From: a virus
Strand: one strand, 5' to 3'
Virus record (IMG/VR): IMGVR_UViG_3300014656_000015
Length of the DNA: 64,000 nt
A model generated the notes under the pieces. It worked only from the letters and a program-made list of their open reading frames with translations, was not told where the DNA came from and searched no databases. A program made the position numbers and the translations under genes. Position 1 is the first letter of the stretch. The number at the start of each line of letters is the position of its first letter. Positions 3,698-62,868 of this stretch are shown here, in pieces.

Positions 3698-4012
3698 ATG
3701 CGATTCAAGGTGCGAGATCAGGACGAGCTCCAGGAAATCCTTGACGGGGAGACCGACATCCTGACCGGCCTGGTCGCGGCGGACGACGAGATCTACCGCA
3801 ACGCGACCTGCCCCAGGTGCCAGGGGCTCACCATGAAGGAGGTCGATGTCCAGCAGTACCTCCGCAGCGGGGCGCAACGCCCGATCCCGACCTACTGTTG
3901 CCGCTGTGCGGAGTGCGGCTGTCTCTTCTCCCCGTTCACCGGGGTCATCATCGAGATGGGCAACCTGGGTCGCCTCGTTCCGCGATACCCACTGGTTCAA
4001 CCCGAGGACTAG
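3698..4012 (+). CDS. small zinc-ribbon protein
   Basis: C-terminal 104 aa of track ORF 2546..4012; ATG at 3698 after AAGGAGG; CPRC...CAEC pairs. Confidence 0.7.
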   Translation: MRFKVRDQDELQEILDGETDILTGLVAADDEIYRNATCPRCQGLTMKEVDVQQYLRSGAQRPIPTYCCRCAECGCLFSPFTGVIIEMGNLGRLVPRYPLVQPED

Positions 4013-7000
4013 ATGGACCGGGTCAGCCCGATGTAGGAGGTCAGCCCGTCCGGGGAGCCGTCCGCGATCAAAGCGTTGAGCCGGCTCGTGGACACCGCGT
4101 CCTCCGACCGCTCGCTCCAGATGGTCCGGTCCGCCCGATGCAGCACGGCAAACAGGGTGACCGGGTACGTGATCTTGGTCGCCCCCATCTGGATCAACCG
4201 AGTCACCAGGGCCGAGAGCTCGAGCTGGTCATCGGGGAGCGTGCTCTCGATGAGTGGAATCAGGGCCGCCCGAACATTCTCCTCGGTGTCCCCGCCCCGA
4301 TACTGGATCTCGGTACGAATGAAGGTGGGGAGCAGGGCACGGACCAGCGGGCTGTGACAGGTGATGCGACGATTCAGGGCCCGGACATAGTCATGGATCT
4401 GCTCCACGATGGCGTCTTGCTCATAGCTCACCTGGATCGACTGTCCCGTGATCTCTTCTTTCTGGGTCGGGTCGTCATCGGCCCCCGCGATCAAGACCCT
4501 GGGCGAGATGTCCATCCAGAGCACTTCGGCCATGGAGTAGGCCAGGCTCACATCCTCGGTGCGTAGGGCCCAGCCCTCGCTCTCATAACCAGTTAGCGTG
4601 GCCTGGTACTCCGGGGGGATGTTGTACTGATTACCGTGCCCCTCCGAGACGCACTCCACATCCCAGTAGTAGAGCCCGAGCTCATCCACGCCCCGATCCA
4701 ACATCTGAGTGGAGCCGATCCGCTGCAGTCCGAGACGGCTGATGCGGACGTAGTGGCCGAGCTCGGCCCCGACGGGGCCGCCGGCCATCGCACCGCACAC
4801 CCAGGCACCACCATCCATATCGGTCAGTGTCAACCCCCCGGTCGGGAAGGCAGCGAGCACGCTGACCAGATAGAACCCCTTCTCCGGACTGTCATTGTCC
4901 GTGTCGGTTCCAGCAAAGGTGTTGGGCGGCAACCAGGGGTTGAAGGTCTGACGATTGACCCCGAGGATCGTGTCGGTGCAGTCCGAGACCCCGGCTGCCG
5001 AGTTGTCCAGGATCGTTATGGGCCGATCCGCACGGAGCATGAGGTAGGCCGTACCCGGCGCCGCAGCCGGTTCATACTTGCCCGCAGCCGGGTATCCGAT
5101 CTCGTTGTTGATCTGCGTGATGATGGCGTCGATGCCCAGCGCGGTGCCGCTGAAGACCACGGTCTCCGCACCGTAACCGACATCGACTTGGATGCTCAAT
5201 CCATCCAGGTTGAGGGCCCCGGCGACGATCAAATCCTCCGATCCGACAAGCGGGGCGTAGCTGATCTCGACCCGGTCCCCGAGCTCGAGCTCGTGCAGCA
5301 TCAGGTCCAGGTTGACCGCTGCTACCGAGTAAGGCAGGACGACGCCCGAGGCCGGCGTCAGCGTGACGGTGGGGACCGTGACCAGGGTCGGCAGGTACTG
5401 ATACCGCACCGTCGGGCTGGGGCGGAACCCAAGCTCCTGCACCCCGGTGTCCACCACGAATCGAGCCGTATCGCTGTCCATCCAGATCGTCAAGGGCTCC
5501 AGGAAGTAGAGCCGGAAGCTGCCGTAGGAGGGCGCCCCGCACACATACTCCATGCCGGCTGCGGCCCAGGGCAGCGCGGAGTCGAGACGGAGCTGGTTCG
5601 AGCTCAGCGCCGAGGCCGGGTCCCCGCCCACCTCGAGCACCGTGTAGAAGCCCTGGTTGTCGCTGGTCAGCACGTTGACAATGTCACCGGGCCGGACCCC
5701 GAGCGCCCAGTAGTCCAGGCTGAGGACGGGCAGTGAGCTCGTCACCACGTCGTCGTTGGGTGGGGCCTCCCGGGTCAACGTGTCCAGGGTCACGTCGACC
5801 GCGGTGCCCGCCTTGGACTCATTGCCCGGGTTCTGGAAGCTGAAGGAGCGGATGTCCACTGGATGCCGGTAGGGTACGTAGGAACCGGTCGGGGTAAGAC
5901 TGGAGTCGAGGAGCTCGACCTGGGTGACCCGGAGCAGGGGCAGGTCTATTCCGTCCAGCTTGCGGTAGATCTCGTACTGGAGCGGGCTCGCCGTATGCGG
6001 AATGCTGCTCTGCAGCGTGATCTGGTTCCCGGCCACACCGCCCGCCACGATACTGTATTCCCCCGCATCGCTCCCGTTCAGGATACGAACCAGGTCCGTG
6101 TCGACCACACCGACCACCCCGAAGTCGGGCACGCCGCTGACCGTCTCCACAACTGCCAGGCCGGCCACGGTGCGTAGATCGGAGCCGGTGTACCGCATCT
6201 CCCGAGGCGTCACCAGGTTGATGTCAACGTCATCCACCAGCAGGAACGAGATCGTGCTCGTGGTCGCCGTCATGTCCTGGCCCAGTCGGACCTGGTACGG
6301 GGGACCCCCGGCCACCTTCTCGATCACGCGGTACGCTCCCTGGTCCGGGCTCTGCTCGAGGTAGAGCGAGGTGCGGCCCTCGACGATCAAGGCCCACTCC
6401 GCTGCGGTGAGGTCCTGGAGCGTGACCACTGCACTACCCAGAATGGTCCGTGCATCCTCTCTCCTGGCAATGACCGCCTCATCGGACACCAGCGGCAGCG
6501 CCACGGTGAGTCGGTCCACGACGTTGCCGCGGACATAGATATCGGTGCAGCCCCCCACGTGAATCGTGTCAGTGGGCACATCGAGCGTGGTTCCGCCGTA
6601 GACATCGGGGAACAGGATGCCACCGGGAATGCTGGAGAGGGTGATCGACCGCTGCCGGATGTGCCAGTACGCACCAGCCAGGGAGTCGGCCAGCCGGTCC
6701 GCACCCGCATAGGCACTGGAGACCCGCACCCGGGTCGCGCCGATCACGCTCCCCAGCACGTAGTCCACGGGACCCGTCGCGGTCTCCACGACCAGGGTGT
6801 AGGAGGAGAGGTCGGTCCCGACCGGGCCCAGGGCCACCGTGAAGTCCACGCTTCCGGCCTGGTCGAAGAACGGAGTGTAACCGTCCGCATCGCCGTCGTC
6901 TGACGTGGTACCGTCCGACGCGCCGGCGTCGGAGCAGACCACGGCCCCGAGGCTCCCGCCCACCAGGACGTCCCGCTCCATCTCGTCGTCGTTGAAGCCC

Positions 7001-27687: not shown

Positions 27688-28734
27688 TCAGGGATGAACG
27701 CCGGAGAGCACCATGCCGCCGCCGGAGTGTACCAGATGCATCAGGACAGCTGCGGCCCACTTGCCCGGATCGTAGGGCAGGATGACCACCCGAACCTGCC
27801 CCTCGGCCGTCCGCAGCCCGTCGTACAGATAGTTCCGGTCCACCACCATCTGTGCCGTTCCTGCGCAACGCCCGTCGACCGGAGTGACATCGTCCAGAGG
27901 GAAGACCTCTGGAGTTGTCCCGGGTGTCGAGAGCCAGAGCCCGATCAGGAGACCATCGGGGTCGATCCGGATCCCGATGTTCTTCCCTCGACCCCGGCCG
28001 GCCATCCGTACCGCGTTTCGCAGCTCATCGGCCGGGACCAGCACGGTCGCCAGCGGGGTCTTTATGTCACGGGCCCACCCCGTCATGGCCCTCTGGATAT
28101 TCACTACCTCGTTCTCCGTCTTCGCCACACAGTTCGTGGCGATAAGATCGAAGGTGTCCCCGTAGACCCGTACCCCGTGCTCGTCGACCCGCACCGTCGC
28201 GGATCGGATCGAGAGCCCGCTCAGGAGCCGGATCATCGCTGCATTGAGCGCCAGGGGAGTCTCGGAGGAAAGGAGTGAGGCACGGTGGAGCCGATACCCG
28301 TCGGTGACCACGGTACCCCAGGGACCCACCATGAAAAAGTTGTCCCAACCCCGCGCACCACCCGATCCCTTTCGAAGATGTAGATTCAGGAAGTCAATGA
28401 CTCCGACCAATCGCTTCTCGACACCCTCCCGCATCGCTGCGGTCCGCTCCGGTTTTGCCGGGACCGTTGTCAAACCCGAGAAATCCAGGGGCTCGTCAGT
28501 TCGCCAGGCCAGTAGGAAGAACGCCGCCGGTCCCATCTCGACAGCTGGGCCGGCGTAGGGCCGATCCAACAGAAGCGTGGCCTGGAAATTCCCGTAGGTC
28601 CTGTCCGTCAACTTCAGCCGTACCCGGACCCCGGGGTCCGCTGGGGACACTACGAACCTCGGAGAGCTTGCGTCCTTTCTAGACTCAACAATAGTTGAGA
28701 GCAGTGTGATGTTCTCCTTGTTCCAGGCCAGCAT
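27688..28734 (-). CDS. DNA sliding-clamp (Pol III beta)-like protein
   Basis: VVTDGYRLH, VPADELRNAVR, DRNYLYDGL resemble ATDGHRL / F-N-x-x-Y-L-x-D clamp motifs; start moved to ATG 28734 (TGATG coupling). Confidence 0.6.
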   Translation of the reverse strand: MLAWNKENITLLSTIVESRKDASSPRFVVSPADPGVRVRLKLTDRTYGNFQATLLLDRPYAGPAVEMGPAAFFLLAWRTDEPLDFSGLTTVPAKPERTAAMREGVEKRLVGVIDFLNLHLRKGSGGARGWDNFFMVGPWGTVVTDGYRLHRASLLSSETPLALNAAMIRLLSGLSIRSATVRVDEHGVRVYGDTFDLIATNCVAKTENEVVNIQRAMTGWARDIKTPLATVLVPADELRNAVRMAGRGRGKNIGIRIDPDGLLIGLWLSTPGTTPEVFPLDDVTPVDGRCAGTAQMVVDRNYLYDGLRTAEGQVRVVILPYDPGKWAAAVLMHLVHSGGGMVLSGVHP

Positions 28735-29207
28735 CAGGCTCCCCGCTGCGGTTCCGTGGAGGGAAGCCGTCCGCCAAGAAGATACTGCCAGGACGGCCAA
28801 CCACGTTCCTGGGCCAGCTCGAACTCGTCCCGGGTCAGGAAGCCGACGGCCGTACACAGATGGAAGTCGCCGAGCTCCCCATCGACGCAAGCCGAGGAGT
28901 ACTGCTTGGCAAAACGGTAGGACTGTTTCCACCCCGCACCATGGGTCTGTTCGGCCCACTCCAGCTCGGCCCGGACCTCGTCATCCTCCGGATCCTGACC
29001 CGGCCCTAGTCCGAGTGCATCGCGTTCCGACTCGATTGGATCCAGCACCTCGGCATAGATCGAGAAACCCTGCTCCTCACGTACCACGAGGTCTCCAGGT
29101 TCAATCTCGTGCTGCCAGCTCTGCACTCGAGCATCGGCCGCAACCCGATTCTTCTGCTTCCCCTCTAACATTGCCTCCAGGCTGTCATACACCTCGAGCA
29201 TCGTCAT
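28734..29207 (-). CDS. hypothetical protein
   Basis: RBS, acidic phage-like ORF. Confidence 0.7.
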   Translation of the reverse strand: MTMLEVYDSLEAMLEGKQKNRVAADARVQSWQHEIEPGDLVVREEQGFSIYAEVLDPIESERDALGLGPGQDPEDDEVRAELEWAEQTHGAGWKQSYRFAKQYSSACVDGELGDFHLCTAVGFLTRDEFELAQERGWPSWQYLLGGRLPSTEPQRGA

Positions 29208-42143: not shown

Positions 42144-42180
42144 GCCTTATAACAAAAAGTGGCGGATCTCGTTATAAGGC
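42144..42180. promoter_or_regulatory. divergent promoter pair (GTTATAAG on each strand)
   Basis: Perfect 10-bp inverted repeat GCCTTATAAC (42144-53) / GTTATAAGGC (42171-80) in an AT-rich gap between divergent genes; second inverted repeat AATCCGG/CCGGATT at 42187-42206. Confidence 0.6.
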
Positions 42181-42239: not shown

Positions 42240-43106
42240 ATGCCACGACAGAAGCAGGAGCCCAAGGAGCGGGCCCCGAAGCCACAGTGGCCCCAGGGTC
42301 CGGAGGACCTGCTCGACATCCTCAAGCGGAGGAATCGAGACATCTACGTTGAATTCGAGGTGGCCTGTGACGTCATCTCGAAGATCGTCGGGGGCACACC
42401 CAGATTGCTCGAGGCCATCTTCGCCCTGATCGACACCAGGGTGAAGCAGGGCAAGCTCAGCCCCGAGGAGGGGGAGCGGATCAAACTCGAGGTGCGGAAG
42501 CAGCACGAGGAGAAGGACAAGGCGAACCGGCTCCTCTACGAGGCTGAGATGGTGGCACGGGAGAACACGGGGGAGGACGTGGACCCGGAGAACCTACCCA
42601 CTAGCGCCCGCGCCATCGAGGCGAGCTGGAACACGTTCTGGCAGGACCCGATGGGTCTCTACCTGGAGACCCGAACCATCAAGAGCACGTTGCGGGACGT
42701 GTTCAGCGCCCTGCAGAAGTTCACGCCGGCGAACCGGAAGAAGGTCGGGCACAACTTCGGGCTCTACATCGAGGCCCCACCGGAGTCCCCGCACCGGGAC
42801 CGGGTCTACCTCTACCGGGGCGGAAGCGTGATCCAGAGGCCCGACACGTTCGAGGACAGGCCCGTCCTCATCAAGGGGGAGCACCCTCGAACCGCGCTGA
42901 AGCGCAACGACGTGATCTACGGCAAGGAGGAGGGAGAGGGATACGGCTGCCAGTTCGGCTTCAAGGTGAAGGTGCTCCGGGATGGCCCCCTGACCCACGA
43001 GGACATCGTGGACGGGCTCGCGCTCCTCATGGACCGCGGCCTGGGGGCGGCCGTTTCCCAGGGAAACGGGAAATGGGAGCCGCTGCACTTCCAGCGGCTC
43101 GGTTGA
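42240..43106 (+). CDS. stand-alone Cas7/RAMP-superfamily protein
   Basis: RAMP order of motifs: first strand + IVGGTP, LYLETRTIKSTLRD helix, thumb DRPV...RTALKRND, FKVKV strand, C-terminal Gly loop GLGAAVSQGNGKW; AAAGGAG RBS; no other cas gene in the window. Confidence 0.8.
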   Translation: MPRQKQEPKERAPKPQWPQGPEDLLDILKRRNRDIYVEFEVACDVISKIVGGTPRLLEAIFALIDTRVKQGKLSPEEGERIKLEVRKQHEEKDKANRLLYEAEMVARENTGEDVDPENLPTSARAIEASWNTFWQDPMGLYLETRTIKSTLRDVFSALQKFTPANRKKVGHNFGLYIEAPPESPHRDRVYLYRGGSVIQRPDTFEDRPVLIKGEHPRTALKRNDVIYGKEEGEGYGCQFGFKVKVLRDGPLTHEDIVDGLALLMDRGLGAAVSQGNGKWEPLHFQRLG

Positions 43107-43630
43107 TCGAAACCAGATCTGGATGACAATCTAAGCTAACCTAATCTGATCTGCTGACGATCTTGCCCGCTCAAGACGTTTCTGGCCGGATGACCCCCTA
43201 GGCCGAGCCGAGCCAAGACGTCCCACGACAAACTGCTGACGTACTCAACGGAACCTCGCTGGACTCGTCCCTGGTCACCGACAAACCGCTACCGACTCAA
43301 CGAACCACACACAATCCATACACACCGCTGCTGGTGACTGACGATCCGATGCGATCACAGGTGACAACCTCGACCGATCTCTGCACAGCATGGCCTCAGG
43401 TCATCGACTCGCCGCCCCACGCCACCCGAGTCGGGTCAAGGGAATCCTGCCGATTCTCTGCTCGGAGCGGAACCACGCACGGGCTTCTGACTCGCCACCC
43501 CGAGACACTCCTGGCGGCCCAACACACTGCCGACGCACCGCTCCGCGCTATGCACGGACACGCCTGGCTTCTGACATGCCACGCCGCTCCGCGCAGAACT
43601 CACGCCAACTAGGACCAGACAAACCCCACC
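43107..43630 (+). ncRNA. putative guide-RNA array: ~12 YGAC-delimited units made of C-NNNN pentamers
   Basis: Non-coding gap directly after the RAMP stop; unit ends (GAC/GAT) at 43127, 43158, 43194, 43240, 43282, 43296, 43342, 43374, 43408, 43454, 43491, 43534, 43575; C every 5 nt inside units. Confidence 0.7.
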
Positions 43631-43692
43631 ACGAGGAACCATTCTGGTTCCTCGTCTTAGCTATCTAAGGGAAGTGGCTCGGAGGTGAGCCG
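43631..43692. terminator. back-to-back hairpin+CTTAG terminators closing the array
   Basis: (+) 11-bp stem ACGAGGAACCA-TTC-TGGTTCCTCGT then CTTAGCTATC; (-) GGCTC-n6-GAGCC then ACTTCCCTTAG. Confidence 0.7.
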
Positions 43693-43712
43693 GGAATAGA
43701 AGGCTGGAGGGA

Positions 43713-44042
43713 TCAGTGGGGACAGCGACTGGTGCCCCCATCCGTTAACAGACGCACCGTTGTTTGCACCATTGCATCGAGCCAGCCCCGACCGGCGAAC
43801 GTACCGTGATGCACGAAACGTCCCCATGAGGGTGCCCAGTGGTCGATCCACAACGCATGCAGGGTTCGAGTACCGGGCCAAATCTGCACACGGAGCGCCA
43901 CGTTCCGATCGCTAGGATGTGACCGTTCCGCGACAAACTTGACCGTTGGACGGGGCCACGACGGCTGGACAACCATCCGGATATCGGTCCCCGCATCACG
44001 CAGGGCACAGTTGAGCCGGTCCAACGTATCCGCTGCTCGCAT
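43713..44042 (-). CDS. hypothetical protein
   Basis: Last gene of a minus operon, TAGATG coupling. Confidence 0.55.
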   Translation of the reverse strand: MRAADTLDRLNCALRDAGTDIRMVVQPSWPRPTVKFVAERSHPSDRNVALRVQIWPGTRTLHALWIDHWAPSWGRFVHHGTFAGRGWLDAMVQTTVRLLTDGGTSRCPH

Positions 44043-48298: not shown

Positions 48299-48315
48299 AA
48301 CGTGCTGCCAGCACG

Positions 48316-48680
48316 GGTGGACCCAAGGGGAATCGAACCCCTGTCCAGACAGATTCAGGCGGTAGGCTCTACGTGCGTAGAGCTGGATCAATCTTGAGAC
48401 CGATGAGCTCCAGCCCGGCTCGCCGGTCCCCAGGTGCGGATGAAGCCCCGCGGTACGCAGATGAAGTCAGCACCAACCACTCCATCACCGCGGTCCACTC
48501 AATGACGCCCAGATCCAGGCCGTGGCACTCCTGGTTGGACGGGCACCTATGCCGCGAGGCGCAGTGCCGGATAATCGTCACGGTTGGCGATTGAGTTTTC
48601 GTCGTAGGGATCATGGGGTCCACGACACCCCCAGCACGCTCCCACAGCCATCCTCTACCTGTCGAAACCAATTTGGGCCC
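48316..48680 (-). ncRNA. ssrA: tmRNA (transfer-messenger RNA)
   Basis: 5' GGGCCCA..GGTTTCGAC pairs with 3' TGGGTCC-A (G3:U Ala determinant); T-arm AGGGGTTCGATTCCCCT; tag ORF 48588-48547 = ANRDDYPALRLAA*. Confidence 0.95.
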
Positions 48681-55870: not shown

Positions 55871-56173
55871 TTAGGCCAGATCCTTGAGGGGCTGCAGGAC
55901 CCGAGCCTTGACCACGCGGTGCTTCGGGGGGATCACGATGATCTCACCGGTGGCCGGGTTCCGACCCTTCCGGGCCGGTGTCGCCTTGCGCTGTACCATC
56001 TCGAGCTTGATCCCCAGGTTGGGAATCGTCACGGTCTGGCCCGCACGGAGCTCGTTGGCTACCACGTCTCGGACCGCCATGAGGACGACGTCGGTGAGCC
56101 TGACTGCGTTCGCCCCACCGATGTGCTCCCCCAGGATGCCACCCACCTCGTTCAGGAACTCCTTCTTTGTCAT
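55871..56173 (-). CDS. HU/IHF-family DNA-binding protein
   Basis: MTKKEF...L..G..V.I...G...ARKGRNPATGE.I.IP.K. Confidence 0.9.
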   Translation of the reverse strand: MTKKEFLNEVGGILGEHIGGANAVRLTDVVLMAVRDVVANELRAGQTVTIPNLGIKLEMVQRKATPARKGRNPATGEIIVIPPKHRVVKARVLQPLKDLA

Positions 56174-62676: not shown

Positions 62677-62868
62677 CTCCTACCTCATCCATTATCTCTC
62701 GCCACCTCTCCACCGAGCACGGCTCGGACCAGATCGACAAGCACGTTATACAGACCCAGCGGAGCACTCCGGGCGGAGACGGGACGATGCGCATCAGCCC
62801 GGCGCAGTTCGGCTCAGTACATCGCTTCAGTTTCATTGGCTTCACGACTCCTCCTCTCCAAAGCACGC

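What the first reader, a model, noticed from the sequence alone, without database searches (positions are those of the whole stretch)
43107..43630. Grammar of the array: YGAC + 3 nt + (C-NNNN) x5-7, with unit lengths stepping by 5
Seen: units parse as, for example, CTGAC-gat-Cttgc-Ccgct-Caaga-Cgttt-Ctggc-Cggat-GAC (43154-43194), CTGAC-gta-Ctcaa-Cggaa-Cctcg-Ctgga-Ctcgt-Ccctg (43236-43273) and TCGAC-tcg-Ccgcc-Ccacg-Ccacc-Cgagt-Cgggt-Caagg (43404-43441). By hand count, in the 10 units with a 3-nt linker, 44 of 50 positions at +4/+9/+14/+19/+24 after the GAC are C. Two more units keep the period with a 4-nt linker. Boundary spacings are 31, 36, 46, 42, 14, 46, 32, 34, 46, 37, 43, 41: six are 5n+1 and three are 5n+2. 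Boundaries recur as CTGCTGAC (x2), CTGCCGAY (x2) and CTTCTGAC (x2). The phase resets at each boundary, which a simple satellite or a codon pattern would not do. Inference: YGAC marks processing or loading sites, and the inter-C bases are variable information, i.e. a gapped guide code.
Basis: seen in the sequence. Interest (0 to 1): 0.88.

Follow-up and report, generated by a model that had tools for sequence, protein, structure and literature searches.

The report
Phage VIPR guide array, cytosine-punctuated
The tract is a real array of 13 short units written in five-base steps next to a lone Cas7-like gene, that is a divergent member of the phage VIPR RNA-guided systems first described in 2026, and it seems to fix one cytosine per step instead of the published G-G-pyrimidine.

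Summary
In 43107-43630, C recurs at lag 5 (z 4.7; 0 of 2000 dinucleotide shuffles). YGAC sets the phase downstream (0 of 20,000 random anchor sets match it).

The tract is non-coding. It starts 18 nt after a 288-aa gene whose model (pLDDT 94) has a Cas7/Csm3 fold, and it ends at a terminator hairpin.

Ten other loci, around relatives down to about 25% identity, carry 5-nt-periodic arrays beside the gene (lag-5 z 3.2-10.8). The array sequence itself is not conserved.

This matches VIPR systems (bioRxiv 10.64898/2026.04.26.720920 and .720927): a lone ancestral RAMP polymerises one protomer per 5-nt repeat on a guide RNA and reads DNA through a gapped code. Earlier notes of this scan reported VIPR-like loci on other DNA and gave me that lead.

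What differs here:
- Only one base per pentamer is fixed, and it is C on the gene-sense strand.
- Units are short and phase-staggered, and they open with YGAC.
- The protein's glycine loop (RSQ type) covaries with the fixed base.

The transcribed strand, RNA processing and targets are all inferred. No target was found.

The parts
42171..42178 (+). promoter-like GTTATAAG box 62 nt upstream of the gene start; a divergent copy lies at 42146-42151 (-)
   Evidence: TATAAG occurs 8 times in the window against 2.8 expected. This is a consensus match only.
42240..43106 (+). vipr-like gene, 288 aa (P0001): a single-RRM RAMP with helical bundle, beta-hairpin thumb and C-terminal glycine loop GLGAAVSQGNG. 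It is the only + strand gene in a run of - strand genes.
   Evidence: GC3 0.90. AF2 pLDDT 94.4. Foldseek E 4e-7 to Cmr4/Csm3/type VII Cas7. VIA Z 11.7-11.3 to Cas7 domains. 87 representative clusters in the family.
43107..43123 (+). 17-nt spacer between the stop codon and the first unit
43124..43630 (+). array of 13 staggered units, each YGAY + 3-4 nt + (C-NNNN) x 2-11; unit starts are listed in the observation check
43124..43278 (+). units 1-4 (31, 36, 46, 42 nt; all TGAC, 3-nt linker): the cleanest part, with 23 of 26 phase positions C
43279..43404 (+). units 5-8 (14, 46, 32, 34 nt): the degenerate middle, with 4-nt linkers in three units and poor periodicity in 43339-43404
43405..43630 (+). 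units 9-13 (46, 37, 43, 41, 59 nt), which contain about 83-nt degenerate duplications (43406-43439 / 43489-43522 and others)
43631..43655 (+). perfect 11-bp hairpin with 3-nt loop, followed by TCTTAGC (43656-43662): the likely terminator of the gene-plus-array transcript. It sits at the convergence with the - strand genes.
   Evidence: (I2). The same layout occurs in L001 (hairpin then a T-rich tail on the gene strand only) and in L005.

Best explanation
43124-43630 is the guide-RNA array of a VIPR-type system, and the gene 42240-43106 encodes its Vipr-like protein, a lone Cas7-like RAMP.

By homology with the solved VIPR complexes, protomers would polymerise along the RNA, one per 5-nt step. 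Each would grip the fixed letter and expose the variable letters for gapped pairing with double-stranded DNA of a competing element.

In this clade the fixed part has shrunk to a single base. I read it as C on the + (gene-sense) strand, transcribed from the promoter-like box at 42171 through the gene and the array to the hairpin at 43631.

Each of the 13 units opens with YGAC, often within CTKCYGAC. This sets the register of the following 5-8 steps, so it would act as the handle where the filament starts or the precursor is cut. Successive units are out of phase, which matches the 'staggered' arrays of the VIPR paper.

Shown here: the periodicity, the anchors, the fold, and the conserved gene-array pairing. 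Inferred: the strand, the processing, the binding, and DNA silencing as the function.

Odds: VIPR family about 0.85. Given that, + strand RNA about 0.7.
For: Periodicity and YGAC anchoring.

Non-coding tract: flat GC3.

Protein:
- High-confidence model with Cas7/Csm3/Cmr4 fold, thumb hairpin, bundle and G-loop.
- Profile hits to the Csm4/Csm3 G-loop.
- Weak but sensible alignment of the G-loop block to the SUSP1 Vipr. Its locus I re-read in KT454805.

Conservation of the gene-array pairing:
- Arrays lie next to family members in L001, L005, L010, L011, L013, L018, L021, L023, L015 and L016. Lag-5 z is 3.2-10.8, with 0 of 300 shuffles reaching it in every case.
- In L010, 117 of 118 phase positions are C, and TGAC heads the units.
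- The array sequence is unalignable between the window and L001, although the genes are 72% identical.
- Positions 1-4 are unconstrained.

Published mechanism.

Strand:
- In 9 of 9 loci with an RSQ-type G-loop the periodic C is on the gene-sense strand, whether the array is upstream or downstream.
- In L010 and L023 all genes run in that direction. In L023 the array fills a 110-nt gap starting at the stop codon, which leaves no room for an antisense unit.
- In the window and L001 the only terminator lies after the array on the gene strand.
- The two loci with periodic G in gene sense have a different G-loop, GFGAERGLG.
Against:
- The VIPR paper lists G-based repeats only (YNNGG, NNNGG, YNNNG, NNNNG). 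Read on the - strand, this array is NNNNG, so a plain strand flip would make the C code an illusion.
- Sequence similarity to the SUSP1 Vipr is marginal (hhalign E 0.0085, probability 4.7%).
- No vap-like accessory gene was recognised. The neighbouring ORFs have no Pfam or PHROG hit, and the 109-aa neighbours of the window and of L005 are unrelated.
- No target was found under a colinear skip rule.
- Units 7-8 are poorly periodic.
- About six family loci showed no array, some of them on truncated contigs.
- The G-loop/base covariation rests on one small G-type subclade.
Confidence: 0.6

Rival explanations
1. It is the same VIPR system, but the guide RNAs are made from the - strand. Units then read (NNNNG)n followed by a short 3' tail GTCR, which is the published 'NNNNG' alternative consensus with a minimal tail. 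The locus would be an ordinary new member with the array antisense to vipr.
For: - The paper reports NNNNG repeats and a variable region capped by a 3' tail.
- All solved contacts are to G.
- In the window the - strand is the strand of nearly all other genes.
- The hairpin at 43631-43655 is palindromic and could work in both directions. The scan also called a - strand terminator-like site at 43636-43624.
Against: - The array would have to be antisense to vipr in all 9 RSQ-type loci. These include L010 and L023, where every gene runs the other way and no space for an antisense promoter exists.
- No TATAAG-type box lies on the - strand to the right of the array.
- vipr would have no terminator of its own for 520-750 nt.
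- The hairpin would sit between any upstream - strand promoter and the array.
Confidence: 0.25
2. It is a protein-coated RNA without guide function. The C-periodic tail would be a long 3' UTR or scaffold that the Cas7-like protein coats, for autoregulation, RNA protection or a structural filament. The inter-C letters would be free because nothing reads them.
For: - Positions 1-4 are unconstrained and unconserved. That fits 'no constraint' as well as 'variable guide'.
- No target was found.
- Type IV-B Cas7-like filaments assemble on non-CRISPR RNA (PMC7937560, seen).
Against: - A scaffold needs no punctuation. Here short units of 5-8 steps with conserved heads and phase resets recur across the family.
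- Experimentally characterised relatives are programmable DNA binders.
- Arrays sit upstream of the gene in three loci, so they are not simply 3' UTRs.
Confidence: 0.1
3. It is a compositional or degenerate-repeat artefact: a C-rich, G-poor tract such as a Rho-utilisation site or a decayed pentanucleotide satellite, with YGAC picked out by eye.
For: - The tract is C-rich and G-poor (38% C, 23% G).
- It contains about 83-nt degenerate duplications.
- Tandem Repeats Finder sees nothing.
Against: - The lag-5 signal survives dinucleotide shuffling.
- The anchor test used all YGAC sites.
- The same periodicity occurs beside homologous genes in loci with 24-28% C and 41-45% GC (L005, L010, L013, L023).
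- A satellite would not reset phase at a fixed motif.
Confidence: 0.02

Closest known systems
VIPR systems, type II (Escherichia phage SUSP1, Pseudomonas fulva prophage); bioRxiv 10.64898/2026.04.26.720920, 10.64898/2026.04.26.720927, 10.64898/2026.10.15.759431
   Same: - Phage-borne lone RAMP with a single RRM core, thumb, helical bundle and G-loop.
- A flanking non-coding array with a strict 5-nt step on the gene-sense strand.
- Fixed letters alternating with hypervariable letters.
- No cas1/2, no CRISPR repeats.
- The array follows the gene and ends at a terminator.
   Different: - Fixed part: one base (C in gene sense) instead of G-G-Y, so four free letters per step instead of two.
- Units: 5-8 steps (31-46 nt), abutting and out of phase, headed by YGAC. 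SUSP1 has about 100-nt RNAs of 9-16 repeats, each with its own promoter and a structured 3' tail with pseudoknot.
- Protein: 288 aa against 195 aa, with a long helical insertion.
- G-loop: A-x-R/V-S-Q where SUSP1 has D-W-R.
- No vap gene was recognised.
- Sequence similarity is marginal.
VIPR types with alternative repeat consensus (NNNGG, YNNNG, NNNNG) and 'staggered arrays with overlapping vrRNAs' (same paper, methods and fig. S18 legend)
   Same: - Pentamers with a single conserved base.
- Arrays whose successive units are offset in register, with the end of one unit marking the start of the next.
   Different: - The paper writes the conserved base as G. Here C is on the strand that operon and terminator logic say is transcribed.
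- The paper says the staggered arrays were not among those confirmed by small-RNA sequencing.
- I could not see the figures or data files, so I cannot tell whether this clade is among its 667 systems.
Cas7 backbone filaments of class 1 CRISPR effectors (Csm3/Cmr4 of type III, Cas7 of type VII, Csf2 of type IV-B)
   Same: - Best structural matches: Z 11.7-9.8, Foldseek probability 1.0.
- G-loop motif of the GhGxxxxxGxG form.
- One subunit per fixed RNA step.
- Type IV-B assembles on non-CRISPR RNA.
   Different: - 6-nt step and no sequence periodicity in the crRNA.
- Long repeats and a Cas6/Cas5-defined handle.
- Multi-gene loci.
- Here: a 5-nt step, a base-specific fixed position, a 4-8 nt punctuation mark and a single gene.

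Membership tests
VIPR (Vipr protein + vrRNA array) | Stand-alone RAMP with RRM core, G-loop and thumb, outside any CRISPR-cas locus | tested here: met
   Model pLDDT 94.4 with a single RRM core, a beta-hairpin at 203-226 and the G-loop at 267-277. Cas7-type matches. No CRISPR-like repeats in or near the tract. Neighbouring ORFs have no Cas hits.
VIPR (Vipr protein + vrRNA array) | Sequence homology to a characterised Vipr (SUSP1) | tested here: inconclusive
   hhalign of the family profile against SUSP1 Vipr gives E 0.0085, probability 4.7%, over 61 columns covering the last helix, the G-loop and the last strand. tblastn of P0001 against 50,697 phage records finds no match.
VIPR (Vipr protein + vrRNA array) | Non-coding tandem array with a 5-nt period flanking the gene | tested here: met
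   Conserved beside relatives in ten further loci.
VIPR (Vipr protein + vrRNA array) | Repeat consensus YNNGG (GGY/NN) on the RNA strand | tested here: not met
   Only one position is fixed: C 80% in gene sense. Positions 1-4 carry 1.88-1.93 bits, and G shows no lag-5 signal on the + strand. The published 'related consensus' NNNNG is matched only if the - strand is the RNA.
VIPR (Vipr protein + vrRNA array) | Hypervariable guide letters between fixed letters | tested here: met
   Near-maximal entropy. No alignable similarity between the arrays of the window and L001, while the genes are 72% identical.
VIPR (Vipr protein + vrRNA array) | vrRNAs expressed and bound by the protein, one protomer per repeat | not testable with these tools
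VIPR (Vipr protein + vrRNA array) | Natural DNA targets under a gapped skip rule | tested here: inconclusive
   No match above shuffled controls in the window. No exact colinear match in IMG/VR or in 185,579 genomes for the units tried. The only extra hit for an L010 unit was the same phage. The 2+1 rule could not be searched because it leaves too few specified bases.
VIPR (Vipr protein + vrRNA array) | Accessory vap gene (typical, not universal) | tested here: inconclusive
   No second + strand gene in the unit. Neighbours are without family hits. L010 (137-aa ORF) and L023 (Dam-like gene) have candidates between gene and array.
VIPR (Vipr protein + vrRNA array) | Carried by a virus or provirus | tested here: met
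   PHROG hits to tail fibre, DNA helicase and ligase. tmRNA gene. 197.6-kb metagenomic contig.
CRISPR-Cas class 1 (type III/IV/VII) | Array of conserved 25-40-nt repeats with unique spacers | tested here: not met
   No such repeats. The punctuation mark is 4-8 nt.
CRISPR-Cas class 1 (type III/IV/VII) | Cas7 fold of the backbone subunit | tested here: met
CRISPR-Cas class 1 (type III/IV/VII) | Further effector subunits (Cas5, Cas10/Cas8, Cas11) and Cas6 nearby | tested here: not met
   The gene is the sole + strand gene between - strand genes that have no Cas family hits.

The most novel reading that the evidence does not exclude
A cytosine-reading VIPR clade. Vipr proteins with an A-x-R-S-Q glycine loop (at least about 60 clusters at 50% identity) would grip a single C per 5-nt step and leave four programmable bases. 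The DNA-pairing rule would then differ from the published two-paired, one-skipped rule, for example four paired and one skipped. The short units would be cut or nucleated at a YGAC 5' handle without Cas6, ribozyme or structured tail. A sister subclade with an E-R-G-L loop would read G. That would give a natural pair for working out how the RAMP G-loop sets base specificity.
Probability: 0.4. Interest if true: 0.75.

Novelty: new variant of a known kind. Interest (0 to 1): 0.55.

Why it matters
VIPR was described only in 2026 and has been characterised for one type (GGY/NN). If this clade really fixes one cytosine and exposes four letters per protomer, three things follow:
- The recognition code of these RNA-guided DNA binders would not be unique.
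- The information density per protomer would double.
- The RSQ versus RGL versus DWR G-loops would offer a direct handle on how an ancestral RAMP chooses the base it holds.

The locus also gives a compact natural example of a 'staggered' array: 13 units in 507 nt, with no ribozyme and no structured tail. The processing of such arrays has not been shown experimentally.

If instead the RNA is the - strand, the locus is an ordinary new member. It would be useful mainly as one more divergent sequence from an uncultured 198-kb high-GC phage.

Tried and rejected
- Coding tract: rejected. GC3 is flat and the ORFs 43334-43612 and 43390-43668 have no family hits.
- Known RNA family: none in the tract. 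Rfam finds only the tmRNA elsewhere in the window.
- Structured RNA: the fold z-score is -1.7, unremarkable.
- Simple tandem repeat: TRF finds none.
- Rho-utilisation site, TRAP-like site, nucleocapsid 'rule of six' analogy: considered from memory before the fold result. Dropped once the Cas7 fold and the VIPR papers explained the 5-nt step.
- CRISPR mini-array: no long repeats.
- Self-targets: the best matches of 12 units in the 64-kb window equal those of shuffled controls.
- External targets: two window units as exact colinear patterns, no hits (one search did not complete). blastn of the array against phages, no match. An L010 unit hit only its own phage twice.
- Array turnover among near-identical contigs: L007/L008 and L001-L004 are identical, so there is no information.
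- Conserved accessory gene: the 109-aa neighbours are not homologous.
- Promoter and terminator scans in L010, L013, L015 and L016: not above shuffles, and they point to either strand.
- Complex prediction (three copies of the protein): not available.
- The paper's supplementary files are not held.
- False positives of my period-5 detector: a pentapeptide-repeat gene in L011 700-977, and weak runs at window 62719-62850 and 55953-56082.

Full report
**The observation**

The tract 43107-43630 lies between the stop codon of a + strand gene (42240-43106) and a perfect 11-bp hairpin (43631-43655). It has no coding signal. The three codon-position GC values are flat, against GC3 0.90 in the gene.

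C recurs at lag 5 far more than in 2000 dinucleotide-preserving shuffles (100 against 74.5 +/- 5.4, z 4.7, none reach it). Lag 10 gives z 3.5. G, A and T show nothing comparable.

- The 13 YGAY boundaries run from 43124 to 43572, with spacings 31, 36, 46, 42, 14, 46, 32, 34, 46, 37, 43, 41.
- Ten units have a 3-nt linker, and in them 44 of 50 positions +4...+24 are C.
- The three recurring 8-mers are all present.
- The one small difference is that three units, not two, fit a 4-nt linker better.

I also tested the anchors without selecting sites.
- All 15 YGAC sites together give a C fraction of 0.72 at +4+5k.
- None of 20,000 random anchor sets reaches that, even when restricted to C positions.
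- TGAC is the best of the 34 tetramers tested, and TGA and GAC are the two best trinucleotides.
- Coherence is strong downstream and weak upstream, so the register is reset at each boundary.
The other four positions carry 1.88-1.93 bits.

**The gene**

The 288-aa product has no Pfam or PHROG hit. An exhaustive HMMER search finds 87 representative clusters.

A profile of 58 members weakly hits the glycine-rich loop of Csm4, Csm3 and a type VII Cas7 in the PDB. A few members touch Pfam Cas6_C or RAMPs.

The AlphaFold model is confident (pLDDT 94.4, pTM 0.86). Its best structural neighbours are all Cas7-type RAMPs:
- Foldseek: Cmr4 at E 4e-7, and many Csm3 and type VII Cas7 chains at probability 1.0.
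- VIA-align: Z 11.7-11.3 to a gRAMP Cas7 domain, type VII Cas7, Csm3 and Cmr4.

The model has one RRM core, a helical bundle, a long beta-hairpin (thumb) and a C-terminal loop of the GxGxxxxxGxG form.

**Conservation**

The gene-array pairing is a family trait. Period-5 arrays lie beside homologous genes in ten further loci:
- L001: 68% protein identity to P0001.
- L005: 47% identity.
- L010, L011, L013, L015, L016, L018, L021 and L023: roughly 23-32% identity, or found through a profile of relatives.

Lag-5 z is between 3.2 and 10.8, and no shuffle of 300 reaches the observed value in any of them.

In L010 (45% GC), 117 of 118 phase positions are C, and units open with TGAC followed by C at +5, +10 ... 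+25 in 92-100% of 13 sites. L011, L018 and L021 use CGAC, with a 3-nt step at each boundary. L015 and L016 use an 8-nt mark.

The letters between the fixed bases are not conserved. The arrays of the window and of L001 cannot be aligned, although their genes are 72% identical at the DNA level. About six family loci showed no array, some of them on short contigs.

**What it is**

I had reached 'Cas7-like protein coating a 5-nt-periodic RNA' when earlier notes of this scan named VIPR systems. I checked the papers myself.

bioRxiv 10.64898/2026.04.26.720920 describes phage-borne loci with a lone ancestral RAMP (Vipr) and vrRNAs made of YNNGG pentamers.
- The NN letters pair with double-stranded DNA, skipping one target base per repeat.
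- It defines seven types.
- It lists alternative repeats NNNGG, YNNNG and NNNNG.
- It describes 'staggered arrays with overlapping vrRNAs', which the text says were not among those confirmed by small-RNA sequencing.

bioRxiv 10.64898/2026.04.26.720927 shows one protomer per repeat. G1 is held by the beta-sheet and by D177 of the G-loop. G2 is held by the thumb and W178. Y3 sits in a narrow pocket.

I located the SUSP1 locus in KT454805: vipr at 28474-29061, vap at 28031-28471, and GGT-NN arrays on the gene-sense strand. I then aligned its Vipr to my family profile. The match is marginal (E 0.0085) but covers the last helix, the G-loop and the last strand in register.

Fold, solitary phage context, 5-nt arrays and hypervariable letters together place this locus in the VIPR kind. 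The GGY consensus itself is not met.

**Which strand**

Read on the - strand, the array is (NNNNG)n plus GTCR, which is a published alternative. Several observations favour the + strand.
- In all nine loci whose protein has the A-x-R-S-Q type loop (the window itself has V-S-Q), the periodic C is on the gene-sense strand. This holds whether the array is downstream (window, L001, L005, L010, L011, L023) or upstream (L013, L018, L021).
- In L010 and L023 every gene runs that way. The first L023 array starts at the stop codon and fills a 110-nt intergenic gap.
- In the window and L001 the gene has no terminator until after the array.
- No TATAAG box faces the array from the right.
- The two loci with periodic G in gene sense (L015, L016) have a different loop, E-R-G-L, and in L016 all genes run in the G direction.

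The simplest reading is that arrays are always co-transcribed with the gene and that the held base differs between subclades, tracking the G-loop. This is inference. The covariation rests on one small G-type subclade, and only RNA data can settle the strand.

**Mechanism proposed**

A transcript starts near 42171-42178, runs through the gene and the 13 units, and stops at the hairpin. YGAC, often inside CTKCYGAC, defines the start of each unit, as a cleavage site or as the nucleation point for the filament. The protomers then bind one per pentamer, each holding the C.

A unit has 5-8 steps. If all four free letters pair, a unit specifies 20-32 bases. That is the same range as the 18-32 bases of type II vrRNAs, whereas two per step would give only 10-16. 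This is an argument from information content, not a result.

The function, by analogy, is silencing of competing mobile elements. No target was found in the window, in IMG/VR, in 185,579 genomes or in GenBank phages for the few exact patterns I could run.

**Verdict**

What may be new is the code variant: one fixed C, four free letters, YGAC heads, and an RSQ loop. I rate it a new variant of a known kind with interest 0.55.

Two tools that could have helped were not available. These were complex prediction and the look-up of sequencing runs.

Noticed in passing
window 48315-48680 (-): Complete tmRNA gene (Rfam 115 bits; ARAGORN tag ANRDDYPALRLAA) inside the phage-like contig.
   Followed up: no
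window 42146-42151 (-) and 42173-42178 (+), plus six other sites: TATAAG occurs 8 times in the window against 2.8 expected. Two copies are back to back upstream of the vipr-like gene, so it is possibly this phage's promoter box.
   Followed up: partly
L015 957-1245 and L016 2956-3376: A sister subclade: arrays with periodic G in gene sense, units marked by an 8-nt motif (CTCGCCGT on the C strand), and a protein G-loop GFGAERGLG in place of the RSQ type.
   Followed up: partly
L023 3718-3791 and 4524-4932: Two arrays of C-A-NNN pentamers (77 of 85 phase positions C) flank a Dam-like methyltransferase gene (3832-4338). The gene caller placed a 205-aa gene over the second array, which is probably spurious. 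The methyltransferase could be an accessory gene.
   Followed up: no
L010 4623-5036 and 5390-6470: A 137-aa ORF lies between the vipr-like gene and a 1.1-kb array of about 25 units. In this array the base before each fixed C is a pyrimidine in 81% of steps and G in 2%.
   Followed up: no
L011 700-977: A pentapeptide-repeat coding region (15-nt period) triggers a period-5 C detector. It is a false-positive class to bear in mind when scanning for such arrays.
   Followed up: yes
window 62719-62850 (+) and 55953-56082 (-): Weaker period-5 C runs (21/27 and 21/26 phase positions) away from any RAMP gene. They are probably chance or coding effects.
   Followed up: no
window 43656-44042: About 390 nt after the hairpin also lack a clear coding signal. 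The 109-aa ORF 43713-44042 (-) has no family hit and no homologue next to L005's array.
   Followed up: partly
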